NCBI GenBank assembly: GCA_048939015.1
Contig: JBHLPW010000002.1
Location: 32,001 to 96,000, forward strand
DNA: 64,000 bases
Direction: 5' to 3'
DNA from: Promethearchaeota archaeon
Lineage (GTDB): Archaea; Asgardarchaeota; Lokiarchaeia; Sigyniarchaeales; SOKP01
In this document: positions 1-14,410 of the stretch, piece by piece
Position numbering within the stretch: the stretch's first letter is position 1
Layout of the letters: every line of letters begins with the position of its first letter
Program-made: the position numbers and the translations under genes
The notes under the pieces: generated by a model
What the model was told of the DNA's origin: nothing
Database searches by the model: none
What the model saw: the letters and a program-made list of their open reading frames with translations, nothing else

Positions 1-640
1 TTCCTGCTTTAGTCATAATATCTAAGAATTTTTCAATTTCAAAGAGTCCTAATTCATGACGATCTACAAAATATTTAACATCTTCATTTCTTTCAGCAAT
101 TAAATAATGCATTTCCATAACTGATAACTCATCTTCCAATTTTGCTGTATTCAATCTAGCAATCTTTATATCTTCTCCATCATAAGTAGTCATTCCAGGA
201 TGTCCAACCGAATAAGTCGATTTTGTAAACCAGGGCTCGATAATTACTACGCCTCCTTTTTCCAAATGATTTGAAAAGTTTATGATCGTCTTTGTCAGAT
301 TAGCGTATGTTTTTACATATCCTATTGAACTAAATAAACATATAATTATGCCGTATTTATCTTTAAGCTTCATATTTATCATATCTGCTTGTTTAAAAAT
401 TACTCCATGGATCTTTTTTCTGGCAACTTCCAGCATTTCTTCATTAATATCTGTACCAGTACAAGAAAATTTATCTTTAAAATATTCTAAATGTTTTCCA
501 GTACCGCAACCAACATCCAATAATTTATTACCATCAGATACCTTATATTTATCAATTAATTCCTTAACTCTTTCCACTTCTTTTTTATAATCCTTCCATG
601 AATAGATTAAATCATAATACTTTGCTAATTCTTTATACAT
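1..640 (-). CDS. Class I SAM-dependent methyltransferase (3' end runs off the window)
   Basis: Not in the ORF track. Manual translation from ATG at 640 gives MYKELAKYYDLIYSWKDYKKEVERVKELIDKYKVSDGNKLLDVGCGTGKHL, containing motif I (LDVGCGTG). Confidence 0.85.
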   Translation of the reverse strand, partial: MYKELAKYYDLIYSWKDYKKEVERVKELIDKYKVSDGNKLLDVGCGTGKHLEYFKDKFSCTGTDINEEMLEVARKKIHGVIFKQADMINMKLKDKYGIIICLFSSIGYVKTYANLTKTIINFSNHLEKGGVVIIEPWFTKSTYSVGHPGMTTYDGEDIKIARLNTAKLEDELSVMEMHYLIAERNEDVKYFVDRHELGLFEIEKFLDIMTKAG

Positions 641-705
641 AATTTCAACTCCATTTATACAATAAATAATTTAATTATAATTAAAAAGAAAAAAATAAGA
701 ATGTT

Positions 706-3276
706 TTAGTCACATTCTTCTGGTATAACTAAAGGCTGGGTTCCAGTTTGGTTGCCAATTAGTTTTAATATCTCAGGACCAAAAACATTAGATAATATTT
801 CATTCATCTGTTTTCCGCCTAAATAGCTTTGACAGCCTAAATGAAGTTTATGAAAGGTATCACCTAGGTTTTCTTCAACTTCCTTAATGAATTCGATTAT
901 TTTATCTTCTAATGTTGGTGATGGAGTCTCGTTCAGTAAAAAGACTACTTTAAATTCTTTATTGGTAAAAAATCCACCTGAAAGATGGCCAAGGCTAAAC
1001 TTTATTGATAAAATTTCGCCTACTTTCAATGCATGGCTCGCTATATGATCCAATGCTGTGAGAAAACCAGAAAAAATTGTATTATCAACATCTTCAGTAG
1101 TAAAATTTAATTCATATTGATTAGCACCACTTTCTCGATGTTGTACCAGTAATTTCTGAATATTTTCTATATCTGGATCGACTATAAAGGGTTTTGTTAA
1201 GAAATTATAGATATCCTCAGACGAGTTTTTTAGCACTTTGAACAATTTTTTGTTTATATAACCATACTCAGGGCCAGTTGGTTCTTCCCAACTTGGATCA
1301 TTTATCAATTCTGTTGCTGCTCGTCCGCTATTTTTCATTATACCTACTTGCGCTCCAAAAACGATTGCTAAATGAAATTCAAAGGCAGAAATATCTCCAC
1401 CGTTTATTCCAATAAGTTTAACTTTACTTGGTTCAATACCAGATTTCATTATATCATACCAATATTGAATCGGTTCTCTAATACTGAAATCTTTTCCTTC
1501 TGTAAAATGAACTGTACTATATCTTTTATCTAATTCAACGTGAGCAGGCATATGACTTGGAACATAACCAATTGTTTTTATTTGATCTGGGTAGTTATCT
1601 TGGATTTCTCCTACTGTACCGCTAATTCCTGCTTTGGTACCACCTGAAATTATTGTTCCTTCAAAATTCCTAAAAGCTTCAATTATATTAGTGTTAAATA
1701 TTTCTAAATTTCGTTCAATACGTTTATCTGTCCCCCCAGCAATAATTACAATAGGCTCATCAAGATTTCTTTCCATTTGTTTTATTTCGGAATCTAATGC
1801 CAAAGTGGACTCATTAATCATTTTATCAGTTTTCTCAACTATATTTGGATGAAATAAAATCCCCAATCGAAGAACTTGTCTGATAAAATCGATGCCTTTT
1901 AATTTATCTTTTATTAGTTTAAGGTTATTCAGAGTATTTAGAGTAGTTTCAATCATCCAAATATCAGAGCTGAATCTTATTCCTTTTAAATAATAATCTA
2001 AAGCTTCATTTACATTTCTAAGAAATAAGTTAAATAAACCTACGTCAAAAAAAGCCCATGGAGTATCGACCATTACTTCTATTTGTCTTAACCGTATTTT
2101 AATTGCTTTCTGAATCATATCATAATTTCTTTCAATATGAACTAAATCTCCTGTTTGCTGAATAACTAGGATTAAATAATTACCTAAAGGATATGGATCT
2201 CCTGGATTCACTTTTAATGCTTGTTTATAGCATTCCAAAGCTTTAGTATAATTATTTTGACTTTTATATGTACCTCCTAATGATGACCATCCATTTGAAT
2301 CAAAAGGATTTCTTTGAGCTGCCTCTATTAAAAATTTCTGACCCTGAATAAATGCTGGGCTTGAGGGATTTTTTTTGTATTTTTGATGATGAGATACACC
2401 CAAATCTCTTAAAACTTCTGCTACTTCTAATTCTGATACTTGTTTAAAGGCTTCAGTTTTCATCAATTCATTTAAAATTTCAATACTTTTATCCATATCG
2501 TTAATTGCCATCGCCAATCTCGCAATTCTATAACCAATTTTTAAATTCTCTTTGTCAGCTTCATAGACCATTTCTAATCTCTCTATTTCAGACTTTATTT
2601 TTTCATTAGACATATAAGTGATTATGGTTGATTCATAATCCCGCATTTTTTTCATGATTTTATCTAATGATTCATCTTCAATAGTCAATAATGATTTTAC
2701 TCGGGTGAGTTCTTGTTCATATGGTTTAGGGACTTTAAAGTCGTGTTGGTTAAAGACTTTGTATTGATTCGCAGCCCATCCATAACTCAAATATGTACAA
2801 ATTTGAATTTCTGCTTTTAAATTGAACATTTTCTCAGGGATATTAAGTTCAAGTCTATCATATATCTTTAAATCAGGCATCAACTGAACAGTGTAGGTCT
2901 GAAAATGTCCAAGAGAAGTACTTATCTCACTTAGTTCGGAGATTTCCAAACCATCTACAGTATCAAATAAAAAATTATCTCGAATTGCTTCACTAACAGC
3001 ATTTAATTCGTTGATATTTGGTAAAAGTATCCTAAATCCGATTAAATCAGTAATTTCTAGAAAAGGATTGGTAATTTTCTTTTCTGATTTAAAGAGTTTG
3101 TTTGCAAAACTAGAAATCTTCTTTACTCGCCCTTGTATGATGAATTCAGATGAATGACCTCTTACTATATTCTTGAGGATCTTCTTCATAATTTTATGAA
3201 ATTCTTTGTAAAATGGACGAATTTCTTTATATTTATTAATTTGCTCTTCGTATGGTTTGCGTTGTTCTAATTCCAT
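706..3276 (-). CDS. Multidomain protein: degenerate RelA/SpoT-like nucleotidyltransferase, TPRs, SLOG (TRPM/LSDAT-like) and C-terminal longin-like domain
   Basis: GRVKKISSFANK, ITDLIGFRI and AEIQICT (RelA/SpoT-like); WSSLGGTYKSQNNYTKALECYKQALKVNP (TPR); IVIIAGG, IISGGTKAGISGTVG, INGG..SAFE and SGRAATEL (SLOG); DNTIFSGFLTALDHIA..GEILSI (Asgard longin-like). Confidence 0.75.
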   Translation of the reverse strand: MELEQRKPYEEQINKYKEIRPFYKEFHKIMKKILKNIVRGHSSEFIIQGRVKKISSFANKLFKSEKKITNPFLEITDLIGFRILLPNINELNAVSEAIRDNFLFDTVDGLEISELSEISTSLGHFQTYTVQLMPDLKIYDRLELNIPEKMFNLKAEIQICTYLSYGWAANQYKVFNQHDFKVPKPYEQELTRVKSLLTIEDESLDKIMKKMRDYESTIITYMSNEKIKSEIERLEMVYEADKENLKIGYRIARLAMAINDMDKSIEILNELMKTEAFKQVSELEVAEVLRDLGVSHHQKYKKNPSSPAFIQGQKFLIEAAQRNPFDSNGWSSLGGTYKSQNNYTKALECYKQALKVNPGDPYPLGNYLILVIQQTGDLVHIERNYDMIQKAIKIRLRQIEVMVDTPWAFFDVGLFNLFLRNVNEALDYYLKGIRFSSDIWMIETTLNTLNNLKLIKDKLKGIDFIRQVLRLGILFHPNIVEKTDKMINESTLALDSEIKQMERNLDEPIVIIAGGTDKRIERNLEIFNTNIIEAFRNFEGTIISGGTKAGISGTVGEIQDNYPDQIKTIGYVPSHMPAHVELDKRYSTVHFTEGKDFSIREPIQYWYDIMKSGIEPSKVKLIGINGGDISAFEFHLAIVFGAQVGIMKNSGRAATELINDPSWEEPTGPEYGYINKKLFKVLKNSSEDIYNFLTKPFIVDPDIENIQKLLVQHRESGANQYELNFTTEDVDNTIFSGFLTALDHIASHALKVGEILSIKFSLGHLSGGFFTNKEFKVVFLLNETPSPTLEDKIIEFIKEVEENLGDTFHKLHLGCQSYLGGKQMNEILSNVFGPEILKLIGNQTGTQPLVIPEECD

Positions 3277-3610
3277 AATACCATTATCACTCCTTATTTC
3301 TATTTGATTAAATTTTTCTTGAATTTCTTCTCTTACTAGAATTTTTACTGATTATTATTTAAAATTTTCTCAATAAATACAATTTAAAGAATAATGATCG
3401 ATAGAATTTAGATTCTCTATCAAGTTTAAAATAATGCCTAGACAAGATAAAATCGGATTTAATTTGAAAAAGTCATTCTATAGTAGTATTTTGAAACTAA
3501 ATTTTCATTTTCACTTAATTTGATAAAATGATTGTATAGAGATTATTATATTATATTAGAGAAGCTTTTTTGACTGTTATTTTCCTTATTTAAGATGGAA
3601 TTTTAAAATA

Positions 3611-3796
3611 GTGGAGATGATTAAAATACCAGAGTTAGTTTGTGATATTTGTGGTTCAAGAAAGGAAGTTCCTACATGTTGTGATACATCAATGATAGTT
3701 AAGGATGAATATTTATTATGTTGTTGCTCTGATGAGTGTGGATATCAACCAATTCCCGAATGTTGTGGTCAATTAATGAAATATATAGAACATTAA
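3611..3796 (+). CDS. Small Cys-rich metal-binding protein with two desulforedoxin-like motifs
   Basis: 10 Cys in 61 aa, arranged as two C..CG...PxCC...M units. The true start may be the ATG at 3617. Confidence 0.65.
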   Translation: MEMIKIPELVCDICGSRKEVPTCCDTSMIVKDEYLLCCCSDECGYQPIPECCGQLMKYIEH

Positions 3797-3839
3797 AAAT
3801 ATAATTTAAAATTATAACAATTTGAAAAAAAATTTGATT

Positions 3840-5900
3840 TTAAGCTGTAGGAGAAACCTTTTTTTGTAAACCTCTTAAAATTTCTTCATATAATTTCTCT
3901 ATAAAACCCTCAAAATCATTCTCAGTATACTTCACATTTAACATCTGCCATAATAAAACAGGTATGTCATCCTCATTATCATATACTGGAATAATTTTTA
4001 ACATTCCCTTTTTTCTCATCTGGAATGCAGCTTGCCATTCATCTTTAACAGCATTAGATTTTACTGAATTTTTCGAGCAGAAAAGTACGAATATATCCGT
4101 ATTTTTTAGAGTATCTTCCATGAATTCTACGATGTTTTGTTTACTGTCAGCTTGCCAATACGAAACCTTTTTTATTTCTGGATATACTTCTAATTCTTTC
4201 ACTATATCTGATATTCGAAAATGCTCAGCATCCAAAGTAGAATAACTGAGAAATACTCTCTGGTTTTTAATGTCCTCAAGTGGTGATACTGGTGCTATTT
4301 CTTTTGCTTTTTGATTAAAGGCGATTGATTTTGATGCTGAAAAATATTCCGCGTCAATTTCCCGATTTTTAATCATTTCAAGAATTATTTGTTCGATTTG
4401 ACTTTCATCTTTAACATCACTCTTTTCAACAATATCCATGAGTTCAAGGCGGGCAAATTTAGTTCCATAGTTCAAGATAGTCTTTTTGATCTTTTTCTTG
4501 ATATTAAACTGGAAGTCCTTACAATAATCAATTTTTTCTTCAATTTTCTCTAGTAATTCAGAAAGTTCATATTCTCTTGCTAATTCTTTTATTTCAACTA
4601 GTTTTAAAATTGCGTCATAAAATTTACTATTTTCAATTAGATTTTCAATTTTAGATAATTTCTTTTGTATCTTTTTATCCATTTTAGCTTGTTCTTTATC
4701 TCTCTTAATTTCTTCTTCCAGTGTTTTACACTGTTCTATTTTTTCTTCTGCTTCTTTCAAAATTTCTGATAATTCATATTCTTGTGCTATTTGTTTAACT
4801 TTTTCTAATTCTCGAAATGCATTTCTTAGCTTATTATCTTCAATTAAATCTTCAATTTCAGATAACTGAGTTTGAAGTTCGTCTTTAACTCTCTGTTCTT
4901 CTAATTCTTCTCTTTTTTCTATTTTAAGTGTATTAACTTCCTTTAATTTTACCTGCGCCTTTTTCATTAATTCTATCAATCCAAAATTTCTTGCAGATGC
5001 TATTATATTATTTAGATTTGCAATAGCTTCATCATATCTATTTCCTCTAATTAATTCATCAATTTCTGACATTTTTTGCTGAAGACCAGTTTTAATTTTT
5101 CGTAGTCCCTCTTCTCTTTCCTCTTTGGAAATTTCTTTAAAGATAATAACAAAATCCCTTACTCGAGCATTTATCTCATGATTAGTGATCATATCGTCAA
5201 CAATGGTTTCAAGAGTTTCACGTTTTATTCCTGTTTTTGATATAATTTCGAAAAAAGGCAGTTCCTTTGATTGAAATTGCATGGTTTTGATAAAATCAAT
5301 AGTTTTTCCTTCAACTAATTGTTTATCCTCCCAATCAGTACCAACTACTACTTCCTGTTTAATTTCGATAGGTTCAACTTCTAATACCTTCCGTTTCATA
5401 GGTTTAGCCTTTACTTCTTTTACTTTCGTCGATTTAACACGTCGAAATATTAATTCTCCTTCCTTACTTACAACAGCAACAACATTTGTTCCAATTAAAC
5501 CAATCCCAAAAATCAAACATAAATAGAATCCAGCTGTAAAGGTTATAGGATTTACAATTACTTGATTTAATGAGATTATAGAAGGATAGATCATTAAGCT
5601 AATTAAAATTAAAAGAAAACCAATTCCACCGAATAGGAGTGCCTTTTTTTTTCTTTCTGGGGTCAATAGTATAATTGAGATAATGGCAAGTGCAACACCT
5701 ACCCACCCCCCAAAAATTAAAGCAATATAACCCTCATATTCTGTCGTATAACCTTCCCATACAGGAGTTTCGGGTGGTGGTGGATATGGAGGGTGATGTT
5801 CTAAATAATATGGAAGAAATGCTGAAACCAATACAATTATAATTAAGATTCCATAAATTAATCTTATAAAATTGAATTTCTGTATTCTAATTTCTGTCAT
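3840..5900 (-). CDS. 4-TM membrane protein with PCI/winged-helix-like domains, three helical repeats and a C-terminal TIR domain
   Basis: Four N-terminal hydrophobic segments; two wHTH/PCI-like segments (IVDDMITNHEINARV, IILEMIKNREIDAEY); TIR motifs VFLSYSTLD, FVLFCSKNSVKSNAVKDEWQAA and KIIPVY at about 3870-4259. Confidence 0.85.
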   Translation of the reverse strand: MTEIRIQKFNFIRLIYGILIIIVLVSAFLPYYLEHHPPYPPPPETPVWEGYTTEYEGYIALIFGGWVGVALAIISIILLTPERKKKALLFGGIGFLLILISLMIYPSIISLNQVIVNPITFTAGFYLCLIFGIGLIGTNVVAVVSKEGELIFRRVKSTKVKEVKAKPMKRKVLEVEPIEIKQEVVVGTDWEDKQLVEGKTIDFIKTMQFQSKELPFFEIISKTGIKRETLETIVDDMITNHEINARVRDFVIIFKEISKEEREEGLRKIKTGLQQKMSEIDELIRGNRYDEAIANLNNIIASARNFGLIELMKKAQVKLKEVNTLKIEKREELEEQRVKDELQTQLSEIEDLIEDNKLRNAFRELEKVKQIAQEYELSEILKEAEEKIEQCKTLEEEIKRDKEQAKMDKKIQKKLSKIENLIENSKFYDAILKLVEIKELAREYELSELLEKIEEKIDYCKDFQFNIKKKIKKTILNYGTKFARLELMDIVEKSDVKDESQIEQIILEMIKNREIDAEYFSASKSIAFNQKAKEIAPVSPLEDIKNQRVFLSYSTLDAEHFRISDIVKELEVYPEIKKVSYWQADSKQNIVEFMEDTLKNTDIFVLFCSKNSVKSNAVKDEWQAAFQMRKKGMLKIIPVYDNEDDIPVLLWQMLNVKYTENDFEGFIEKLYEEILRGLQKKVSPTA

Positions 5901-6137
5901 TTAAATCTACTCTTCAATTATTTTATTTATTCGATTTTTAATAAAGATCTTTAATTTGTTTCTCGTTTAGTTCTATTAAGACGAGTTTAGATTTTATTTT
6001 TGGATTATACTACTTATATTAATTATATGATGACTTCATATTTATATCACTCTTGTGTATAAATTAAATTTCAATCAGAGTTAATATAAAGATACATAAA
6101 AAAAAAATAAAAGTAGTAAAAAGGCTAATATTAGAAT

Positions 6138-9100
6138 TTACTTTATTTTTTTCTTAAGTTGCCATGAAATTGATATTAAACTGAAAATCATTATTAAATA
6201 AAGCATATTAATATTATAAGTTGGTATAGCGGGAGATTCTGATTTCTTAATAGAAACCTCAGCATATCCTTCATGACCCAATGTATCAGTAGCATAAAAT
6301 CGTAGAGTGTATTCTCCAGGAGGTAATGCATTCCAATATTCTTGGATAATATCTCCAGTAAGGGTACAAGTTTCATTTATTTCTCCACCATCTAATGTAT
6401 ACCATATCTCATCTAAATTACCTTCATTTATAGTTAATTCAAAACTTGGAGCTCTATCTGTAAATGCTTGATTGTCTTCTGGAGAATTAATCGTGATCTC
6501 TGGTGAAAGTACATCTTTCCTCACAGTTACTTCTTCCCAATCAGAATTCCCTACCGAATCATTCGCATAAAATCTTATAGTAACAGTCCCATTGCCAAAA
6601 TTATCCCATTCCGTTTGGTCAATGTTTCCCATAGGTTCAGTAATAAGTAAGATTGTTACTCCTCCGTCCAAAGTATACCACATAATGTTCAAGTTTGGTT
6701 CTACAATAATTAAAGAAAATGAAGGAGTAGTGCTTCCGAAGAGATAATTTGAGATCGGTGTGGTGATTGTAATCTCTGGTGGAAGCACATCTTTTCTTAC
6801 TAACACATCTTCCCATCCAACATTACCAGCTGTATCATTCGCATAAAATCTAATAGTAACCGTTCCGTTTCCAAATTTACCCCATTCTATTTGGTCAATA
6901 TTACCCGTAGGTTCAGTAATAAGTACAATTGTTAACCCACCATCCAGGGTATACCACATAGTATCTAAATTAGGTTCAATAACTGTTATGTTAAAGTATG
7001 GTTCAGAACTTCCGAAAAGGTCATATAGAAGTGGTGAATTGATTGTAATGTTAGGATTGATAATATCAGCTATACAAGAAATTGTAAAATACCGAATTAA
7101 TGAAGATCTCATATATCCAACTGTATCATTTCCAAACACTTGAATGGTATGTAATCCATCTGAAGGCAATGGAATTGTAGTATTTCCTAAGATAGTCTTT
7201 ATTGTTTGAGAATCTAGTGAATATCCTTGCCAATCAAGAGCAATTTCACTCTCATAACTAAGTAATAGCCCTTCATTTAAATTATCTCCAATTTTATAAT
7301 TTGGATCCCAGGAATACCCTATCGCATCTACATATCTATTATGGCTATATGGCATTGACCAGCTTAACATATAGGTGGGTGCTATATTATTAATAAAGCT
7401 CAATGGTCCAATTTTAGTCCCATTAATATATAAATTCCATTGATATTGAGACAAACCCATATAACCTCCATTTGTAGCTTCAAAATCCATTCTAATATGA
7501 TACCACTTATTATTTATAACAGGAAGACCAGTATCATGCCAACCGGTATTATCTAGATATAAGAATTTATCTCCTACTCCGATTGCTACACAACAAATGT
7601 CTACAGTACCATTATGAAGTCTGATTTGAAATGAATGAGAAGAAGTGTAAGTAGTAATTTCATTTGCAGCCCAACATTCAAAAGTTCCATTACTCTGTGG
7701 TCCTGTAGTGAATTGCTGGAAAAAAATCGCCCCTCCTTCATAGCAATTGTATACCTTCTTATGACCATTAAATTCATCTATGACCTTCCAATTATCTTCA
7801 GAATCCAAAAAATTGAGAGGATCATTATTATTATGAGTATCTTCAAATCCATAGGTAGCTGGATAATAGCCACTCATCGGATCAGTATAGGTTTTGTTTT
7901 CAGGAGTGATTATATCTATAGGGAAATATTGAACGGTGAAATACCTAATCTGTGAATAATATTCTAATCCTAGTGAATCATTTCCAAATACTTGAACTGA
8001 ATGTACTCCATTCTCTGGTATCGGAATTGTTGTGTTTCCATAAATAGTTTTAGAGATGTGATCATCCAAAGAATACCCTTGCCAATCAAGAACGATTCTA
8101 TTTTTATAACTTAGCAATAAACCTTCATCCATATTAGCTCCAATTTGATAATTAGAATCCCATGAATACCCAATAGCATCAAAATACATATAATAATTCA
8201 TTTCTGTACTCGCAGTTGATATCCAAAATAGTGTTGCTTGAGGTTCATTATTTTCAAATTTAAAGGGTCCATATTTAGAGCCATTAATATGTATAAAACA
8301 GGAGTATTGATTCAATCCTTTATAATTCCCTGTTGAACATTCAAAATCAACACTTAAATGATACCAATTATTTGAAGAGGCAGGACACAATGAGTAATCC
8401 GTTCCATTAGTATATCGAAATTCATTATTCCTAATCTCAACAGCGAAAAGCGAATCAGTTACTACATCCAAATTCGCCAATCGAAAGGCTCCCGCCTGGG
8501 AAGCATCTGATATCCTCCACCAAAATTCTACTGTTCCATAAACTTGTACTGAGGAAAAGTTATTCCAAAGTTTTACAAGTCCAGCCCCAGCATTATTATT
8601 ATCATAGAGTTCTAAAACCTTTTGATGTCCATCAATTCCAGAAATGACTTGAACAGATGTATCTGAAGCTTCTAAAATTGTCCATCCTTCTGGATAAGTG
8701 CCATCCTCATCATTTTCAAATCCATGAGTTGCTAGGTAATATCCATCCATTGGTTGAGTATATGTTTGATTAACTGGAGTGACTAATTTAATCGAGGAAA
8801 CCTCAAAATGTTGTAGTCGTGATTGATATAACTCTCCTAATGAATCATTTCCAAATACCCGAATAAGATGTTCCCCATCTACTGGCATTTTTATAGTTGA
8901 ATTTCCTAGTATAGTTTTTATAGGCTGTAAATCAAGTGAAAATCCTTGCCAATCAAAGACAGTAGAGTTTGTAAAACTAAGTAATAACCCTTCGTTTAAA
9001 TTATCTCCAACATTATAGCCGGGATCCCATGAATAACCTATAGCGTCGACGTAATATGTAAGATTATTACTCGCACTAGAATAAATCTGAAAATTATGTA

Positions 9101-12100
9101 CATCAACTAGATCACCATCCCTAAAACCATAATCATCAGCTATCAAGGTATTATCGATATAGATATCGAATGTATCAGTCGAACAATTAAATTCAACACT
9201 AAAATGATACCATTTATCATTAATACAGGGAATAAGATCAGACCAAGATGTAGAATCATAACATTGAAACATATTTCCATCTGTTCTAATGACTACTGCT
9301 AGCTCACTGATAGATCCTCTTATTCTAATATATATATTCTCAGCTGAATCATTTGTACATATCCAAAATTCAACTACTCCATTTGATTTAGCGGAGGCAA
9401 AACTATCTAAAATATTAGCCGAAGGTGAAGAATTAGTGTCAATAAATTCCACAACTTTTTTATGATTTATGTATTCTTCAATTACTTGTACTGAAATGCC
9501 CTTCGCTACATCTGATACTAATCTTGAAGGTCTTGATCCAATTGAATCTTCTTCAAACCCAAAAGTTGCTGGATAATATCCACTCATAGGTTCATTGTAT
9601 ACTTTATCTTCAGGTGTTTTAATCTCTATTCCATAATCAACTTTAAAATATCTTAATTCAGATTCGTATAATATCCCTCGTGAATCCTCACCAAACAATT
9701 GAATTTGATGCACTCCTTCATCCAAATATGGAATGGTAGTATTTCCAAATATTGTTTTATTTATTTGTCCCTCTAATGAATAACCTAACCAAGTTAATTC
9801 GGTATTCTGAATAGTACTAATCAGTAATCCATCATTTGCATTATCGCCAATATTATAGTTTGAATCCCATGAATACCCAATAGCATCGGCATAGCATATA
9901 TCTCCATTAAAATGATAGAAATTTTGACCACTTGGAGTATTATTATATCGGAAACTAAAGGGTCCAAATTGTTCGTTATCTATAGCTACTTGCCAATACC
10001 ATTGTGATAAGCCCATATATCCTCCACTAGAGGTTTCAAAATCAATTCTCATATGATACCATGTGTTATCCAAAGTAGATTTTCCTAAATTATACATACC
10101 ACCAGTATGATTATTATAAACAAATTTTTCGTTATCTATTCCAATAGAAAAAGCTTGTCCTTGCCCAATTTGATATATCTGTGATGATATGGCATAAGAT
10201 GCATCTTCAATTGCCCACCAAAATTCAATAGTACCATGTTCTTCTGGTGTTTCAAATATATGATTTATCGAAATATCTCCAGGCCCAGGATCCTCCATTT
10301 TTAAAACCTTATTATGACCTTGAAATTCATCGATTATTTCACAAACACCATAAGTGTCGACCCACCCAAAAGGATCACTTGCATCTTGGTCATTCTCGAA
10401 TCCAAAAGTGGCAGGATAATATCCGTATGTTGGTGCAAAATAAGTTTTGTTTTCAGGTGTGCTAATATTAAAGAATGAACCTGTATCTACTGAAAAGTAC
10501 CTTAATTCAGAATTATAGATACTTCCTAACGTATCATTACCAATTACCTGAATATGGTGACTTCCATCTTTAGGAAAGGGGATTGAAGTATTTCCTAATA
10601 TTGGTATTATTGATTGACTGTCCAGAGAATATCCTTGCCAATCTAGATTAGTGCTATTCTCATAACTTAGTAGTAATCCTTCATTGAAATTATCACCAAC
10701 ATTATATCCTATATCCCATGAGTAACTTATTGCATCAGCCCAGAATTCAATAGCTTGAGTATTACCGGTATATAACTCTACTTCATAAGCATCTCCAGTG
10801 AAAGAATAATTAGCTATAGGTGATTCAAAATAGAGAGATCCGTCAGCTTGATAAATCCTAAATTTATATTTATTTGCATCTAAATCTTTATAGGTTCCAT
10901 CTCCAGAAAAATCTATACTCACTCGAAACCATTCATTTATAGAATTTAAACCTGTATTAATTTCGGTAGTACCATTTTTATAATACCACACATTATCATA
11001 GCTATATACATCAACTATATACTGATCGAGCGAATTTTTTATAAAAAAATGAGTGTGGTAATTATGACTATTATAGTATATCCAATATTCAACTGTTCCA
11101 CTAGTAATATTTTCATAGAATATTTGTGCAGGATATAGGTGAATACCACCTCCGGGATCGTTCAGATACAGAACATTATTGTGCCCATCTTTAGAATCAA
11201 CTACGTATACTCTTCCTTGATAAGAACCATATCCTTCTTCTGACCATGCATTTGGAAAATCCCCACTTTTATCATTCTCAAATCCATAGGTGGCAGGATA
11301 ATAGCCACTCATTGGACAAGTATAGATCTTATCTTCAGGTGTGATTAAATTTAAATGATGAACTGAAAAGCAACGAATATTAGATTGAAAATTAGTCCCT
11401 AATGAATTATTTCCATATACCCGAATTGAATGTGGTCCATCCTCTGGCAATGGAATCGTAGCATTCCCTAAAATTGTTCTATTAATCTGTCCATCTAAAG
11501 AATAGCCCATCCAATCAAGATTGGTATTATTTTCATAACTTAGTAATAATCCTTCATTGAAATTATCACCAACATTATATCCTATATCCCATGAGTAACT
11601 TATTGCATCAGCCCAGAATTCAATAGCTTGAGTATTACCGGTATATAACTCTACTTCATAAGCATCTCCAGTGAAAGAATAATTAGCTATAGGTGATTCA
11701 AAATAGAGAGATCCGTCAGCTTGATAAATCCTAAATTTATATTTATTTGCATCTAAATCTTTATAGGTTCCATCTCCAGAAAAATCTATACTCACTCGAA
11801 ACCATTCATTTATAGAATTTAAACCTGTATTAATTTCGGTAGTACCATTTTTATAATACCACACATTATCATAGCTATATACATCAACTATATACTGATC
11901 GAGCGAATTTTTTATAAAAAAATGAGTGTGGTAATTATGACTATTATAGTATATCCAATATTCAACTGTTCCACTAGTAATATTTTCATAGAATATTTGT
12001 GCAGGATATAGGTGAATACCACCTCCGGGATCGTTCAGATACAGAACATTATTGTGCCCATCTTTAGAATCAACTACGTATACTCTTCCTTGATAAGAAC

Positions 12101-13250
12101 CATATCCTTCTTCTGACCATGCATTTGGAAAATCCCCACTTTTATCATTCTCAAACCCATAAGTTCCGAAATAATACCCATTCATTGGTTTTGAATAAGT
12201 TTTCGCTTCTGGTGTTATTATATCTATTGGAAAATCTACTGTGAAATATCTAATTTCAGATTGGTGATTTATTCCTAATTGATCCATCCCAAAGATATGA
12301 ATTGTATGAAGCCCATCTTCTGGCATTCTAATTGTCGTGTTACCAAGAATAGGTCTTTTATTTTGACTATCTAAAGAATAACTTTTTCTATCAAGTGTGC
12401 TATTAGAATCAAAACTAATTAATAAGCCTTCATATAGATTATCTCCCACTTGATAGTTAGGATCCCAAGAATATCCTACGGCATCATAAAAAGTCGAATA
12501 CCCAGATTCAGTAGTCCTTGTATAAATTTGAAAACTACCAAGGGATTGGTGGTCGTGAGTACCTATCATTGGATAAGGACCATATTTTTCCCCATCGATA
12601 TATACTTGCCATTTCTCCTCCGGTAACCCACTATAGTTTCCCTCAGTACATTCAAAATCAATATGAATGTGATACCACGTATTATCTGAAGCAATTTTTC
12701 CCACATCATACCATAGAAAGCCAGGGCTATAATATCTTCTAAATTTATCCTCCCGTATTGAGATACAAACCGCATAGCTACCTCCAGGAGGCTCATATAT
12801 TACTGCATCGGCTGGGTCAGTTGCATCTGTAACTCTCCACCAAAATTCAATAGATCCATATGATTGAGTTTTTCCAAATGTTTGTATAGCTCGAGTTTCA
12901 TAACTAGTATCTGTATCTTGTAATTCTACTACTTTCTTATGACCATCTAGATCACCTATTATATCTGCTGCGCCGCCTTTTCTATCTATTTTCCAACCAT
13001 TCGGGTCAGTATTTTCTCTATCATTTTCAAATCCAAAAGTTGCAGGATAATATCCTTCCATAGCATCTGTATATGTTTTATTTTGCGGAGTTACAATTGT
13101 TATACTATTGCTACTTAATTTTAAATCTACTTTTTCATCAGAAACTTTATTTAATCTATTGATTCCAAAATTATTCATAAAAGCATAACTACATAACCCA
13201 ACTAAAAGGATTAAACTTAAGGAGATTAATCTTATTCTTATCTTTTTCAA
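6138..13250 (-). CDS. Giant surface protein A: signal peptide, 7 LamG/ConA-like cassettes in an Ig-like scaffold, 3 Ig-like stalk repeats, Loki-CTERM-like anchor
   Basis: TTG start with GGTGA SD; seven GYYPATxGFE...DAxGYSWDxxYxxGDN units with GTxEFW and WYHxxxDF motifs; tail PAIPTYN-hydrophobic helix-KKKIK; many N-x-S/T sequons. Confidence 0.85.
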   Translation of the reverse strand: MKKIRIRLISLSLILLVGLCSYAFMNNFGINRLNKVSDEKVDLKLSSNSITIVTPQNKTYTDAMEGYYPATFGFENDRENTDPNGWKIDRKGGAADIIGDLDGHKKVVELQDTDTSYETRAIQTFGKTQSYGSIEFWWRVTDATDPADAVIYEPPGGSYAVCISIREDKFRRYYSPGFLWYDVGKIASDNTWYHIHIDFECTEGNYSGLPEEKWQVYIDGEKYGPYPMIGTHDHQSLGSFQIYTRTTESGYSTFYDAVGYSWDPNYQVGDNLYEGLLISFDSNSTLDRKSYSLDSQNKRPILGNTTIRMPEDGLHTIHIFGMDQLGINHQSEIRYFTVDFPIDIITPEAKTYSKPMNGYYFGTYGFENDKSGDFPNAWSEEGYGSYQGRVYVVDSKDGHNNVLYLNDPGGGIHLYPAQIFYENITSGTVEYWIYYNSHNYHTHFFIKNSLDQYIVDVYSYDNVWYYKNGTTEINTGLNSINEWFRVSIDFSGDGTYKDLDANKYKFRIYQADGSLYFESPIANYSFTGDAYEVELYTGNTQAIEFWADAISYSWDIGYNVGDNFNEGLLLSYENNTNLDWMGYSLDGQINRTILGNATIPLPEDGPHSIRVYGNNSLGTNFQSNIRCFSVHHLNLITPEDKIYTCPMSGYYPATYGFENDKSGDFPNAWSEEGYGSYQGRVYVVDSKDGHNNVLYLNDPGGGIHLYPAQIFYENITSGTVEYWIYYNSHNYHTHFFIKNSLDQYIVDVYSYDNVWYYKNGTTEINTGLNSINEWFRVSIDFSGDGTYKDLDANKYKFRIYQADGSLYFESPIANYSFTGDAYEVELYTGNTQAIEFWADAISYSWDIGYNVGDNFNEGLLLSYENSTNLDWQGYSLDSQSIIPILGNTSIPFPKDGSHHIQVIGNDTLGSIYNSELRYFSVDTGSFFNISTPENKTYFAPTYGYYPATFGFENDQDASDPFGWVDTYGVCEIIDEFQGHNKVLKMEDPGPGDISINHIFETPEEHGTIEFWWAIEDASYAISSQIYQIGQGQAFSIGIDNEKFVYNNHTGGMYNLGKSTLDNTWYHMRIDFETSSGGYMGLSQWYWQVAIDNEQFGPFSFRYNNTPSGQNFYHFNGDICYADAIGYSWDSNYNIGDNANDGLLISTIQNTELTWLGYSLEGQINKTIFGNTTIPYLDEGVHQIQLFGEDSRGILYESELRYFKVDYGIEIKTPEDKVYNEPMSGYYPATFGFEEDSIGSRPSRLVSDVAKGISVQVIEEYINHKKVVEFIDTNSSPSANILDSFASAKSNGVVEFWICTNDSAENIYIRIRGSISELAVVIRTDGNMFQCYDSTSWSDLIPCINDKWYHFSVEFNCSTDTFDIYIDNTLIADDYGFRDGDLVDVHNFQIYSSASNNLTYYVDAIGYSWDPGYNVGDNLNEGLLLSFTNSTVFDWQGFSLDLQPIKTILGNSTIKMPVDGEHLIRVFGNDSLGELYQSRLQHFEVSSIKLVTPVNQTYTQPMDGYYLATHGFENDEDGTYPEGWTILEASDTSVQVISGIDGHQKVLELYDNNNAGAGLVKLWNNFSSVQVYGTVEFWWRISDASQAGAFRLANLDVVTDSLFAVEIRNNEFRYTNGTDYSLCPASSNNWYHLSVDFECSTGNYKGLNQYSCFIHINGSKYGPFKFENNEPQATLFWISTASTEMNYYMYFDAIGYSWDSNYQIGANMDEGLLLSYKNRIVLDWQGYSLDDHISKTIYGNTTIPIPENGVHSVQVFGNDSLGLEYYSQIRYFTVQYFPIDIITPENKTYTDPMSGYYPATYGFEDTHNNNDPLNFLDSEDNWKVIDEFNGHKKVYNCYEGGAIFFQQFTTGPQSNGTFECWAANEITTYTSSHSFQIRLHNGTVDICCVAIGVGDKFLYLDNTGWHDTGLPVINNKWYHIRMDFEATNGGYMGLSQYQWNLYINGTKIGPLSFINNIAPTYMLSWSMPYSHNRYVDAIGYSWDPNYKIGDNLNEGLLLSYESEIALDWQGYSLDSQTIKTILGNTTIPLPSDGLHTIQVFGNDTVGYMRSSLIRYFTISCIADIINPNITINSPLLYDLFGSSEPYFNITVIEPNLDTMWYTLDGGLTIVLITEPTGNIDQIEWGKFGNGTVTIRFYANDTAGNVGWEDVLVRKDVLPPEITITTPISNYLFGSTTPSFSLIIVEPNLNIMWYTLDGGVTILLITEPMGNIDQTEWDNFGNGTVTIRFYANDSVGNSDWEEVTVRKDVLSPEITINSPEDNQAFTDRAPSFELTINEGNLDEIWYTLDGGEINETCTLTGDIIQEYWNALPPGEYTLRFYATDTLGHEGYAEVSIKKSESPAIPTYNINMLYLIMIFSLISISWQLKKKIK
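10674..12155. repeat. Exact 609-bp direct repeat (10674-11282 = 11547-12155, offset 873 bp)
   Basis: Base-by-base comparison found no mismatch. The first mismatches are at 10673/11546 and 11283/12156. Confidence 0.95.
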
Positions 13251-13257
13251 ACAAATT

Positions 13258-13330
13258 TCACCAAAATTTATTTTGACTATTTAATATAATCTGAGATACA
13301 AAAATGTCAAGTTAGTATTTAAAAATTTGT
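13258..13330 (-). promoter_or_regulatory. Putative TATA box (TTTTTAAATAC, 13315-13325) and GGTGA SD for surface protein A
   Basis: Homologous to the upstream region of the paralog at 20241-20320. Confidence 0.5.
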
Positions 13331-13403
13331 CAAAAATTTAATAAATCAAATCTAAGATAACAATTTGACCAGACGTAATCAAAGAAAAAGAAAAAAGAGA
13401 ATT

Positions 13404-14410
13404 TTATTTTATTTTTTTCTTAAGTTGCCAAATCAAAGATATTGTTCCGATCATCATTATCAGAAAAAGTATAATATTATGATAACTAGATATAGCGGGA
13501 GATTCTGTCTTCTTAATAATAACCTCAGCATATCCTTCATGACCCAATGTATCAGTAGCATAAAATCTTAGAGTGTATTCTCCAGGAGGTAATGCATTCC
13601 AATATGATTGGTCAATTTGTCCAGAAAATGTACAAGTTTCATTGATTAATCCACCATCTAATGTGTACCATATAGTATCTAAATTACCTTCAATTATATC
13701 TAAATCAAAGTTTGGAGCTCTATCTGTGAATATTTGATTGTCTCCTGGGAGATTAATCGTGATCTCTGGTGAAAGTACATCTTTCCTCACAGTTACTTCC
13801 TCCCAATTAGAATTCCCTACTGTATCATTTGCATAAAACCTAATAGTAACCGTTCCGTTTCCAAACTTATCCCATTCCGTTTGGTCAATGTTTCCTATAA
13901 GTCCTATCATAGGTATAATTGTTACTCCTCCATCTAAAGTATACCACATAGTGTTCAAATTTGGTTCTAGAATAGTTGCATCAAATGAAGGAGCAGTACT
14001 TTCGAAGAGATAATTTGAGATCGGTGTAGTGATTGTAATCTCTGGTGGAAGCACATCTTTTCTCAATAATACTTCTTCCCATCCAACATTACCAGCCGTA
14101 TCATTTGCATAAAATCTAATTGTTACCGTTCCGTTTCCAAATTTACCCCATTCTATTTGGTCAATGTTTCCCGTGGGTTCAGTAATAAGAATAATTGTTA
14201 ACCCACCATCCAGGGTATACCACATAGTATCCAAATTAGGTTCAATAACTGTTATATTAAAGTATGGTTCAGTACTTCCGAAAAGGTCATATAGAAGTGG
14301 TGAATTGATGGTAATGTTAGGATCAACAATATCACCTGCGGTTGAAATTGTAAAATACCGAATTAATGAAGACCTCATATATCCCCAGGTATCATTTCCA
14401 AATACTTGAA
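13404..14410. repeat. ~1-kb 3' segment highly similar to 6138-7144 (offset 7266)
   Basis: Long identical runs, e.g. aacctcagcatatccttcatgacccaatgtatcagtagcataaaat at 6255 and 13521. Confidence 0.9.

What the first reader, a model, noticed from the sequence alone, without database searches (positions are those of the whole stretch)
706..3276. RelA/SpoT-TPR-SLOG-longin fusion
Seen: four recognisable modules in one ORF: RelA/SpoT-like (about 2750-3135), TPRs (about 1930-2560), SLOG, and a C-terminal longin-like domain (about 780-1162; LLVQHRESG..YE..F...DNTIFSGFLTAL). Known: alarmone synthetase domains are mainly bacterial, while longin/roadblock domains are Asgard and eukaryotic small-GTPase regulators. 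Inference: a bacterial-type nucleotide-signalling protein grafted onto an Asgard GTPase-regulatory module.
Basis: partly seen in the sequence, partly recalled or inferred. Interest (0 to 1): 0.72.

Follow-up and report, generated by a model that had tools for sequence, protein, structure and literature searches.

The report
TIR-linked SLOG signalling enzyme, longin tail
This Lokiarchaeial gene does fuse an alarmone-synthetase-like enzyme, TPR repeats, a TRPM-type nucleotide-sensing SLOG domain and a longin-fold tail; it is the archaeal branch of a mostly bacterial, uncharacterised family that sits beside TIR and NUDIX genes, so it probably reads a nucleotide signal.

Summary
Observation confirmed. 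ORF 706-3276 (-) encodes 856 aa with four modules.
- A RelA/SpoT domain matches Pfam above its cut-off and resembles the small alarmone synthetase (SAS) RelP/YwaC.
- TPR repeats follow it.
- An LSDAT-type SLOG domain is confirmed by Pfam and fold. The AF2 model has pLDDT 91 and its best matches are TRPM2/3/8 MHR1/2.
- The C-terminal domain has no Pfam match but folds as beta-beta-alpha-beta-beta-beta-alpha-alpha. It matches TRAPP, Sec22 and Fuzzy longins and MglB/LAMTOR at Z about 11.

The RelA/SpoT-TPR-SLOG core occurs in at least 10 bacterial phyla, where the tail is a RyR domain and a NUDIX gene sits upstream. Promethearchaeota carry the longin tail instead. That tail comes from a native family found in 145 of 201 sampled Asgard genomes. 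Its members include Ras-GTPase fusions and cytoplasmic tails of giant membrane proteins.

TIR-domain genes flank most archaeal orthologues and many bacterial relatives. The acceptor (GYxSxH) loop is lost exactly in the longin clade, yet every domain stays under purifying selection (dN/dS 0.06-0.20 across domains).

Best reading: a Thoeris-like, TIR-linked nucleotide-signal reader. Regulation of a GTPase is untested. The scan has found orthologues and bacterial relatives on other DNA with similar conclusions. Novelty: new variant of a known kind.

The parts
706..3276 (-). ORF of 856 aa (stop codon 706-708): RelA/SpoT-TPR-SLOG-longin protein (P0001)
   Evidence: There are 47 homologous clusters, about 40 with the same architecture. 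dN/dS against 83-85%-identical orthologues is 0.11 over the whole protein.
2638..3207 (-). SAS-like RelA/SpoT nucleotidyltransferase domain, residues 24-213 (Pfam core 49-169 = 2770-3132). R50-x-K52, D77-x-x-G80-x-R82 and E156-x-Q158 are present. The G-loop reads LGHFQTY instead of GYxSxH, and ExQxRT reads EIQICT.
   Evidence: dN/dS is 0.10.
2077..2622 (-). TPR repeats, residues 219-400. In relatives P0045 and P0046 this region reaches the Pfam cut-off for TPR-S (sensor TPR).
1762..2076 (-). Conserved helical linker region, residues 401-505 (motifs PW..FD.GLF and WMIETT). No family was assigned.
1195..1755 (-). LSDAT/TRPM-type SLOG domain, residues 508-694, with conserved Gly-rich loops (GGT, GGTK.G, GINGG..........E)
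757..1164 (-). Longin-fold domain, residues 705-840. It is the most constrained part of the protein (dN/dS 0.055-0.07).
3617..3796 (+). Small 59-aa Cys-rich ORF, divergent from the main gene. It is conserved at 78-85% identity beside the orthologues. It is a possible partner of unknown function.
   Evidence: No Pfam match.
3840..5900 (-). Upstream neighbour of 686 aa with a C-terminal TIR_2 domain (residues 549-669 = 3894-4256). This is the candidate signal generator.

Best explanation
The protein is the signal-reading output component of an undescribed, Thoeris-like nucleotide-signalling system.

Shown:
- It combines a SAS-type nucleotidyltransferase domain, TPR repeats, a TRPM-type SLOG domain and a longin-fold tail.
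- TIR-domain genes sit beside most archaeal orthologues in three different orientations. They are also enriched beside bacterial relatives, together with NUDIX and HD_4 hydrolase genes.

Inferred:
1. The neighbouring membrane-anchored TIR protein converts NAD+ into ADP-ribose or a cyclic-ADPR-type signal.
2. The SLOG domain binds that signal, perhaps together with the TPR-S-like repeats.
3. Binding releases TPR-mediated auto-inhibition of the RelA/SpoT domain.
4. The RelA/SpoT domain keeps its ATP/Mg2+ site and transfers pyrophosphate to an acceptor that is probably no longer GDP or GTP.
5. The longin tail dimerises. It docks the enzyme onto another longin or roadblock platform, either a small GTPase or the longin-type cytoplasmic tails of membrane receptors.

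The output may be immune (growth arrest) or an ordinary physiological switch.
For: Domains.

TIR linkage in the longin clade:
- A TIR gene lies 130-680 nt upstream on the same strand in the window clade and in L032/L083, L035, L107 and L040/L098/L099.
- It is convergent in L042/L084.
- It is divergent in L113 (P0039, 40% identity) and L112 (P0042, 38% identity).
- A protein with DUF4062, a TIR-like NADase domain (bioRxiv 10.64898/2026.05.01.722283), lies in L110.
- The own genome has only 11 TIR_2 matches in 4.86 Mb, so adjacency by chance is unlikely.
- The TIR catalytic Glu aligns with the 'DE' of plant TIR and of Cat1.

Bacterial and Thermoplasmatota relatives: of 101 ORFs within 3.5 kb of the gene in 20 loci, 11 match NUDIX, 7 TIR_2, 3 TIR, 3 DUF4062 and 4 HD_4. 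NUDIX is fused to the protein in P0045 and P0046. The TPR-SLOG unit is also joined to a nucleotide cyclase in L097.

The SLOG fold is closest to the ADPR-binding TRPM2 MHR1/2 domain, and its Gly loops are nearly invariant.

The Mg2+/catalytic residues K52, D77 and E156 are conserved in at least 90% of the clade. All domains have dN/dS 0.06-0.20.

In the SAS-TPR enzyme of Treponema denticola the TPR domain acts as a brake on synthesis (PMC10434055).

Longin homodimer prediction: score 0.61 against a best control of 0.14. That mark was reached by 20 of 30 proteins solved as pairs and 1 of 23 solved as single chains. The runs agree in at least 93% of contacts and the partner pLDDT is at least 81. 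The interface is helix alpha1 plus strand beta3, as in roadblock/longin dimers, so the pass may reflect memory of solved dimers.
Against: - No biochemistry exists for any member of the family.
- In the window the TIR gene and this gene are separated by 563 bp that hold an opposite-strand ORF, so they are not one operon.
- Two longin-clade loci show no TIR gene within the sequence held (P0034/L026 and P0031/L111).
- Part of the archaeal synteny is shared ancestry, because downstream metabolic genes are syntenic too.
- The acceptor G-loop is lost and variable across the clade, and R160 of ExQxRT is Cys here, so the domain may not be catalytic.
- The NUDIX partner is absent from the archaeal loci.
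- PADLOC gives only candidate-level partial hits: PDC-S33, and ThsB at E 6.5e-4.
Confidence: 0.5

Rival explanations
1. The protein is a non-catalytic adaptor. In the longin clade the RelA/SpoT domain has become a nucleotide-binding pseudo-enzyme. The protein then links SLOG ligand sensing to a small GTPase or a membrane receptor through the longin platform, acting as a scaffold of the GEF/GAP type.
For: - The GYxSxH loop is lost in every longin-clade member, but kept in the bacterial, Thermoplasmatota and 671-aa Asgard relatives.
- RxK, G80 and R82 also decay in the most divergent members P0040, P0042 and P0043.
- The RelA/SpoT domain is the least conserved domain (mean pairwise identity 0.53 against 0.59-0.63 for the other domains).
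- The NUDIX partner is lost.
- A TPR-SLOG-longin paralogue without the RelA/SpoT domain exists (G183).
- The longin domain is the most constrained part and its family includes Ras-GTPase fusions.
Against: - K52, D77 and E156 are kept in at least 90% of the clade.
- dN/dS of the RelA/SpoT domain is 0.10, as low as for the TPR and SLOG domains.
- L043 has both a canonical G-loop and the longin tail, so the tail does not by itself imply loss of catalysis.
Confidence: 0.22
2. The protein is a housekeeping, metabolite-gated alarmone synthetase, an archaeal stringent-response analogue. The SLOG and TPR domains would sense a metabolic nucleotide, and the TIR neighbours would be incidental.
For: - It is the only RelA_SpoT gene in the genome.
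- It lies in a stable chromosomal context next to lysine-fermentation and other metabolic genes.
- HD_4 (the (p)ppGpp-hydrolase-type domain) and NUDIX neighbours in bacteria fit synthesis and degradation of an alarmone.
Against: - Distribution is patchy: 35 of 400 genomes of the phylum and 20 of 53 in the genus. That is unlike a core stress pathway.
- The guanine-acceptor loop is lost.
- The TIR association recurs in three orientations and across domains of life.
- STAND NTPase and WD40 neighbours in bacteria are typical of conflict systems.
Confidence: 0.15
3. The protein is a stand-alone toxSAS-like abortive-infection effector. The TPR repeats sense a viral protein directly, as in CapRel-type fused sensors. 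SLOG and TIR would play no signalling role.
For: TPR and other repeat domains often act as direct sensors. The RelA/SpoT part matches the PADLOC candidate PDC-S33.
Against: The SLOG domain and its Gly loops are strongly conserved. The TIR, NUDIX and HD_4 neighbours point to soluble-nucleotide signalling.
Confidence: 0.08

Closest known systems
Thoeris type I (ThsB TIR + ThsA SIR2-SLOG) and other TIR-signal systems with SLOG effectors
   Same: A TIR-domain gene lies next to a protein whose SLOG domain is predicted to read a TIR-made NAD+-derived signal and switch on an enzymatic effector (background from bioRxiv 10.64898/2025.12.03.692087).
   Different: - The effector is a RelA/SpoT nucleotidyltransferase, not SIR2.
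- The SLOG is of the LSDAT/TRPM type.
- There are extra TPR and longin (or RyR) modules.
- The TIR proteins are tails of membrane or giant surface proteins.
- The window arrangement is not an operon.
- No defence phenotype is known.
- PADLOC ThsB similarity is marginal.
Small alarmone synthetases RelP/YwaC and RelQ/YjbM, and the SAS-TPR (DsRel) enzyme Tde-SAS
   Same: The catalytic fold and the ATP/Mg2+ motifs are SAS-like (6fgk at E 6e-7). As in Tde-SAS, the SAS domain is followed by TPR repeats, which there act as a brake on synthesis (PMC10434055).
   Different: - The GYxSxH acceptor loop is absent, so (p)ppGpp synthesis is doubtful.
- The protein is twice the length, with SLOG and longin domains.
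- Pairwise similarity to the solved SAS proteins is weak: 33 bits to RelP/YwaC and about 19 bits to RelQ/YjbM.
Bacterial RelA/SpoT-TPR-SLOG-RyR proteins with a NUDIX partner (uncharacterised; for example KKM66910.1/P0047)
   Same: These are homologous over residues 1-690 at about 30% identity, with the same domain order.
   Different: - The bacterial forms keep a canonical G-loop.
- They end in a RyR domain.
- A NUDIX gene sits directly upstream or is fused.
- The window protein has a decayed G-loop, a longin tail and no NUDIX partner.
TRPM2 N-terminal MHR1/2 (LSDAT SLOG), the ADP-ribose-binding site
   Same: It is the best structural match of residues 495-700 (Foldseek E about 1e-7, TM 0.55-0.65). 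Both belong to the same Pfam LSDAT group.
   Different: The window protein is a soluble enzyme fusion rather than an ion channel. Ligand identity is untested, and sequence identity is only 14-20%.
Longin domains of TRAPP (Bet5/Trs23, TRAPPC1/C4), Sec22b/VAMP7 and Fuzzy, and roadblock proteins MglB/LAMTOR, including Asgard roadblocks (7yh1, 9jue)
   Same: The fold and the predicted dimer mode are the same. Z is 10-11.3 over 101-129 residues. Element order is of the longin type, with no N-terminal helix and extra C-terminal helices, as defined in PMC10933270.
   Different: - It has no sequence-family (Pfam) membership.
- It is fused to an enzyme.
- Longin and roadblock hits tie within 1 Z unit.
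- No GTPase partner has been identified.

Membership tests
RelA/SpoT homologue (RSH) synthetase domain / small alarmone synthetase | Match to the Pfam RelA_SpoT model (PF04607) above its gathering cut-off | tested here: met
   36.5 bits against a cut-off of 27, residues 49-169. The match also holds over the genome's six-frame search.
RelA/SpoT homologue (RSH) synthetase domain / small alarmone synthetase | ATP/Mg2+ and catalytic motifs: RxKxxxS, DxxGxR and ExQxRT | tested here: met
   R50, K52, D77, G80, R82, E156 and Q158 are present. R160 is Cys in the window and its closest kin. K52, D77 and E156 are conserved in at least 90% of the clade.
RelA/SpoT homologue (RSH) synthetase domain / small alarmone synthetase | Acceptor (GDP/GTP) G-loop GY(R/Q/L)SxH with a stacking Tyr | tested here: not met
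   The window reads LGHFQTY and the loop varies across the longin clade. It is canonical (FGYRSxHY or FGYLSxHY) in bacterial, Thermoplasmatota and 671-aa Asgard relatives.
RelA/SpoT homologue (RSH) synthetase domain / small alarmone synthetase | Synthesis of (p)ppGpp or (p)ppApp | not testable with these tools
   This needs an enzyme assay.
SLOG superfamily, LSDAT (TRPM-type) family | Match to Pfam LSDAT_prok (PF18171) above its cut-off | tested here: met
   29.0 bits against a cut-off of 25.4, residues 508-661. Most homologues also carry the match.
SLOG superfamily, LSDAT (TRPM-type) family | Rossmann-like SLOG fold closest to TRPM MHR1/2 | tested here: met
   AF2 pLDDT is 91.4. The top 50 Foldseek PDB matches are all TRPM2/3/4/7/8 N-terminal domains, at E 7e-8 to 4e-6.
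SLOG superfamily, LSDAT (TRPM-type) family | Conserved Gly-rich nucleotide-binding loops | tested here: met
   The GGT, GGTK.G and GINGG loops and the following Glu are invariant or at least 90% conserved.
SLOG superfamily, LSDAT (TRPM-type) family | Binding of ADPR or another nucleotide ligand | not testable with these tools
   This needs a binding assay.
Longin domain | Element order b-b-a-b-b-b-a-a: no N-terminal helix packed on the sheet, and extra C-terminal helix or helices | tested here: met
   DSSP of the model gives E21-28, E34-39, H47-64, E72-75, E78-84, E90-96, H102-128 and H137-155. The criterion is taken from PMC10933270.
Longin domain | Structural match to solved longin domains that is clearly better than to roadblock domains | tested here: inconclusive
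   Longins (TRAPPC1/4, Bet5/Trs23, Sec22b, Fuzzy) score Z 10.5-11.3 over 121-129 residues, including the C-terminal helices. MglB, LAMTOR and Asgard roadblocks score Z 10-11.1 over 96-107 residues. The Z values tie within 1.
Longin domain | Dimeric platform through the central helix and the edge strand | tested here: inconclusive
   A homodimer is predicted only: score 0.61 against a best control of 0.14. That mark was reached by 20 of 30 proteins solved as pairs and 1 of 23 solved as single chains. The interface covers residues 43-80 of the domain. The pass may reflect memory of solved dimers.
Longin domain | Binds or regulates a small GTPase | not tested
   The evidence is indirect only. The same domain family is fused to a Ras domain in P0072 (E 7e-18 to the profile; BLASTP E 1e-12 over 162 columns) and to P-loop GTPase-like domains in two ORFs of the own genome.
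Thoeris-like TIR + SLOG-effector system | TIR-domain gene adjacent to the SLOG-bearing gene, conserved across relatives | tested here: met
   Exceptions are L026 and L111.
Thoeris-like TIR + SLOG-effector system | TIR catalytic glutamate present | tested here: met
   The 'KDEW' Glu aligns with the 'DE' of plant TIR AT1G72930 and of Cat1. These alignments have weak E-values of 0.1-0.4. TIR_2 scores 55 bits.
Thoeris-like TIR + SLOG-effector system | Genes form one operon | tested here: not met
   There is a 563-bp gap holding an opposite-strand 59-aa ORF. Other loci are divergent or convergent.
Thoeris-like TIR + SLOG-effector system | Protects against viruses | not testable with these tools
   No host-virus system was available. 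PADLOC gives only the candidate models PDC-S33 and PDC-S07 and a marginal ThsB hit.

The most novel reading that the evidence does not exclude
In Asgard archaea a receptor-type TIR protein, a TRPM-type SLOG sensor and a longin platform form one signalling chain. An NAD+-derived second messenger would then control a small GTPase or a membrane-receptor complex, with the modified RelA/SpoT domain acting on a new acceptor, possibly GTPase-associated. That would be a prokaryotic forerunner of the coupling between nucleotide second messengers and longin/GTPase switches in the lineage closest to eukaryotes.
Probability: 0.12. Interest if true: 0.88.

Novelty: new variant of a known kind. Interest (0 to 1): 0.62.

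Why it matters
If the reading holds, this is a TIR-to-SLOG signalling pathway whose output is a RelA/SpoT-type enzyme rather than an NADase. It is spread across many bacterial phyla and has been taken up by Asgard archaea.

In the Asgard branch the tail was exchanged for a longin domain. That fold forms the platform for Rab, Rag and Arf regulators in eukaryotes. The protein therefore offers a concrete, testable link between nucleotide second-messenger signalling and the expanded longin/small-GTPase machinery of the closest archaeal relatives of eukaryotes.

It also bears on the origin of the TRPM SLOG (ADPR-sensing) module. The loss of the guanine-acceptor loop under continued purifying selection suggests either an unknown RelA/SpoT chemistry or a pseudo-enzyme sensor.

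Tried and rejected
- Pfam, NCBIfam and PADLOC on the C-terminal 171 aa gave no match. The language-model atlas gave only leads: unnamed archaeal clusters at 0.92-0.93 and a Roadblock/Fuz_longin cluster at 0.87.
- The fold search 'atlas' library was not available.
- After three loci I thought the TIR adjacency was confined to close kin. I rejected this after tblastn and further loci.
- P0041 (GTP_EFTU fragment + TPR + SLOG, 501 aa on a 1974-bp contig) looked like a GTPase fusion. It is a short-contig fragment, possibly chimeric, and I did not rely on it.
- A word-based homology search with the RelA/SpoT region alone added only P0050.
- No NUDIX or TIR gene was found by tblastn within about 6 kb of the 671-aa Asgard subfamily. 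The queries may be too divergent for this to count.
- No close orthologue of the Ras-longin protein P0072 was found in 151 sampled Asgard genomes at E <= 1e-40. Its organism remains unknown.
- Rfam found nothing in 1-6200.
- The 2015 Nucleic Acids Research paper that defined SLOG, LSDAT and TPR-S could not be opened. I could not check whether it already lists this architecture. Full-text searches found no paper describing it.
- My own TIR profile was biased towards archaeal TIRs and under-counted bacterial neighbours. I used the Pfam tally instead.
Full report
**The object.** The window is contig C21:32001-96000 of a 4.86-Mb Promethearchaeota (Lokiarchaeial) genome bin. The bin has 125 contigs, is 94.9% complete and has 6.5% contamination. 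GC content is about 30%. ORF 706..3276 on the minus strand encodes 856 aa.

**The first three modules.**
- Pfam finds RelA_SpoT at residues 49-169 (36.5 bits, cut-off 27).
- It finds a TPR block at residues 219-400.
- It finds LSDAT_prok, 'SLOG in TRPM, prokaryote', at residues 508-661 (29.0 bits, cut-off 25.4).
- NCBIfam and the PDB sequence search place the N-terminus nearest the small alarmone synthetases YjbM/RelQ and YwaC/RelP (6fgk, E 6e-7).

**The C-terminal module.**
- The last 171 aa match no family.
- An AF2 model built on 38 homologues has pLDDT 83 and the element order b-b-a-b-b-b-a-a.
- All top Foldseek hits are LAMTOR, MglB, Asgard roadblocks, TRAPP Bet5/Trs23, AP sigma subunits, VAMP7 and Fuzzy.
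- By VIA-align, the longins TRAPPC1/4, Trs23, Sec22b and Fuzzy reach Z 10.5-11.3 with 121-129 aligned residues running into the C-terminal helices.
- Roadblocks reach similar Z with about 100-107 aligned residues.
- By the topological criterion quoted in PMC10933270 the domain is longin-type. Longin and roadblock cannot be separated by score.

**SLOG fold.** The SLOG region folds with pLDDT 91. It matches only TRPM N-terminal MHR1/2 domains, several of them solved with ADP-ribose.

**Family and distribution.**
- About 40 protein clusters at 36-91% identity share the full architecture. Those that carry a name are from Lokiarchaeota/Promethearchaeota bins.
- In a 400-genome sample of the phylum the gene occurs in 35 genomes. 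Of the 34 other than the window's own, 31 belong to the window's family, and 20 of 53 genomes of its genus have it.
- It is the only RelA_SpoT gene in this genome.
- A scan of one genome per species found the homologous RelA/SpoT-TPR-SLOG core in many bacterial phyla: Verrucomicrobiota, Chloroflexota, Acidobacteriota, Calditrichota, Gemmatimonadota, Planctomycetota, Actinomycetota, Bacteroidota, Spirochaetota and Thermodesulfobacteriota. It also found it in Thermoplasmatota.
- In bacteria the C-terminus is a RyR domain. Thermoplasmatota and a 671-aa Asgard subfamily end after SLOG.
- So RyR is what 'replaces' longin in bacteria.

**Tree.** A maximum-likelihood tree of the shared 690 residues splits the Asgard sequences from all others with SH-aLRT 100. 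The Asgard side comprises the 671-aa subfamily plus the longin clade. Thermoplasmatota nest among bacteria. The tree is unrooted, so transfer from bacteria into Asgard is favoured only by the breadth of the bacterial distribution.

**The tail is a native Asgard module.**
- A profile of the tail finds 481 representative proteins at E <= 1e-3. None of 97 that I scanned carries a Pfam longin or roadblock annotation.
- The profile matches 145 of 201 sampled Asgard genomes. It matches 45 of 45 genomes in the window's family, at 3-15 copies each.
- In this genome 21 other ORFs carry the domain.
- Most of these are giant proteins (1,500-2,240 aa) or multi-pass membrane proteins. In them the domain follows the last hydrophobic segment by about 50 residues, so it is a cytoplasmic tail.
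- Two tandem ORFs on contig C32 carry it in front of a P-loop GTPase-like domain.
- The best match outside the TPR-SLOG proteins is P0072, which has a Ras domain at residues 40-198 followed by this domain. It scores E 7e-18 to the profile, and BLASTP gives 27% identity over 162 columns including the flanking motifs.
- A homodimer of the tail is predicted through helix alpha1 and strand beta3. The score is 0.61 against a best control of 0.14. That mark was reached by 20 of 30 proteins solved as pairs and 1 of 23 solved as single chains, with at least 93% contact agreement and pLDDT at least 81. This may be memory of solved roadblock dimers.
- The link to GTPases is thus supported by domain fusions but not tested for this protein.

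**State of the enzyme domain.**
- The ATP/Mg2+ motifs are present: R50-x-K52, D77-x-x-G80-x-R82 and E156-x-Q158. K52, D77 and E156 are conserved in at least 90% of the clade.
- The acceptor loop is FGY(R/L)SxHY in every bacterial, Thermoplasmatota and 671-aa Asgard sequence.
- In all longin-clade members it is replaced by unrelated, variable sequence. The window reads LGHFQTY.
- L043 has both the canonical loop and the longin tail, so the tail probably came first.
- The domain is the least conserved part of the protein.
- Against 83-85%-identical orthologues its dN/dS is 0.10. The other values are 0.09 (TPR), 0.13 (SLOG) and 0.055-0.07 (longin).
- The domain is therefore under selection. It is either an enzyme with a new acceptor or a binding module.

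**Neighbourhood in archaea.**
- The upstream gene (3840-5900, minus strand) ends in a TIR_2 domain (55 bits). Its catalytic Glu aligns with that of plant TIR and Cat1.
- I first took this adjacency for shallow synteny.
- tblastn and further loci then showed a TIR domain next to most longin-clade orthologues. It is co-directional 130-680 nt upstream in several subclades, convergent in L042/L084, and divergent in the 38-40%-identical L112 and L113.
- A protein with DUF4062, a TIR-like NADase domain, lies in L110. No TIR gene is seen in L026 or L111.
- The N-terminal parts of these TIR proteins differ: four TM segments plus coiled coil, NosD beta-helix, or LVIVD.
- The genome has 11 TIR_2 matches, three of them in this window on ORFs of the same strand.

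**Neighbourhood in bacteria and Thermoplasmatota.**
- Of 101 ORFs within 3.5 kb of the gene in 20 loci, 11 match NUDIX, typically directly upstream. A further 7 match TIR_2, 3 TIR, 3 DUF4062 and 4 HD_4. STAND NTPases are also present.
- NUDIX is fused in P0045 and P0046.
- TPR-SLOG also occurs behind a nucleotide cyclase plus AAA domain in L097.
- The archaeal loci lack NUDIX.

**Reading.** The recurring set of TIR, SLOG sensor, nucleotide-making enzyme and nucleotide hydrolases is the pattern of TIR-based signalling systems such as Thoeris (background: bioRxiv 10.64898/2025.12.03.692087), with a RelA/SpoT effector in place of SIR2. The TPR brake on Treponema SAS-TPR (PMC10434055) gives a precedent for auto-inhibition. 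I found no paper describing this architecture. The 2015 paper that defined LSDAT and TPR-S could not be opened.

**Earlier scan notes.** Earlier notes of this scan report orthologues and bacterial relatives on other DNA with similar conclusions. I reached mine from my own calls. The points I did not see in the short note summaries shown to me are:
- the membrane-tail distribution of the longin family and its Ras fusion;
- the dimer prediction;
- the clade-exact loss of the G-loop, with the transitional form L043;
- the per-domain dN/dS values;
- the conserved small Cys-rich ORF.

**Verdict.** It is a new variant of a known kind of system, and its chemistry and partners are unknown.

Noticed in passing
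window 3617-3796 (+): A 59-aa ORF with 10 cysteines (a CxxC pair, then CC, CCC, C and CC). It is divergent from the RelA/SpoT gene. It is conserved at 78-85% identity in the same position in at least 10 orthologous loci, including L024 and L037 where the TIR gene is not adjacent. It has no Pfam match.
   Followed up: partly
window 22098-25793 (-) and 27023-33586 (-): Two more large ORFs on the same strand (1231 and 2187 aa) end in TIR_2 domains, at window 22119-22484 and 27047-27409. Three of the genome's 11 TIR domains therefore lie within 30 kb upstream of the SLOG gene, forming an array of TIR-tailed receptor-like proteins.
   Followed up: partly
window 3840-20234: In L024/L025 the 526-aa gene (78% identical to window 20411-21991) lies directly upstream of the small ORF and the RelA/SpoT gene. 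Relative to that arrangement, the 686-aa TIR gene and the two giant ORFs (6138-13250 and 13404-20234) look like an insertion or rearrangement.
   Followed up: partly
own genome, e.g. C64:9223-15033, C87:33874-40593, C95:48799-54285, C120:22111-27357, C99:45829-48225, C10:46376-47713, C24:6598-8247: The same longin-like domain sits about 50 residues after the last hydrophobic segment of giant surface-type proteins and of 7- to 11-TM proteins. It looks like a common cytoplasmic output or adaptor tail of Asgard membrane proteins.
   Followed up: partly
own genome C32:73034-75223 (-): Two tandem genes (303 and 328 aa) have an N-terminal longin-like domain (profile E about 1e-10) followed by a P-loop (GxxxxGK[ST]) GTPase-like domain. 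MMR_HSR1 scores just above its cut-off in one of them.
   Followed up: partly
L115 (G183:C38:3941-8060): A 672-aa RelA/SpoT-TPR-SLOG gene is followed in tandem by a 707-aa TPR-SLOG-longin paralogue that lacks the RelA/SpoT domain.
   Followed up: no
L112:340-5054: In the P0042 locus the divergent TIR gene heads a cluster with ThiF (E1-like), Prok-JAB and a weak UFC1 (E2-like) match. This is a ubiquitin-like conjugation set next to the TIR/SLOG pair.
   Followed up: no
L097, L101, L102, L105 (Actinomycetota): Proteins of about 1110-1146 aa. In L097 a zinc ribbon, an adenylate/guanylate cyclase domain and an AAA ATPase precede the homologous TPR-SLOG region. The nucleotide-making head is therefore exchangeable.
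   Followed up: no
L086 and L087: A sigma-54-type AAA+ domain fused to RelA/SpoT-TPR-SLOG (about 1135 aa) is nearly identical in a Thermodesulfobacteriota bin and in a bin labelled Promethearchaeota. This is probably a binning error in the latter.
   Followed up: no
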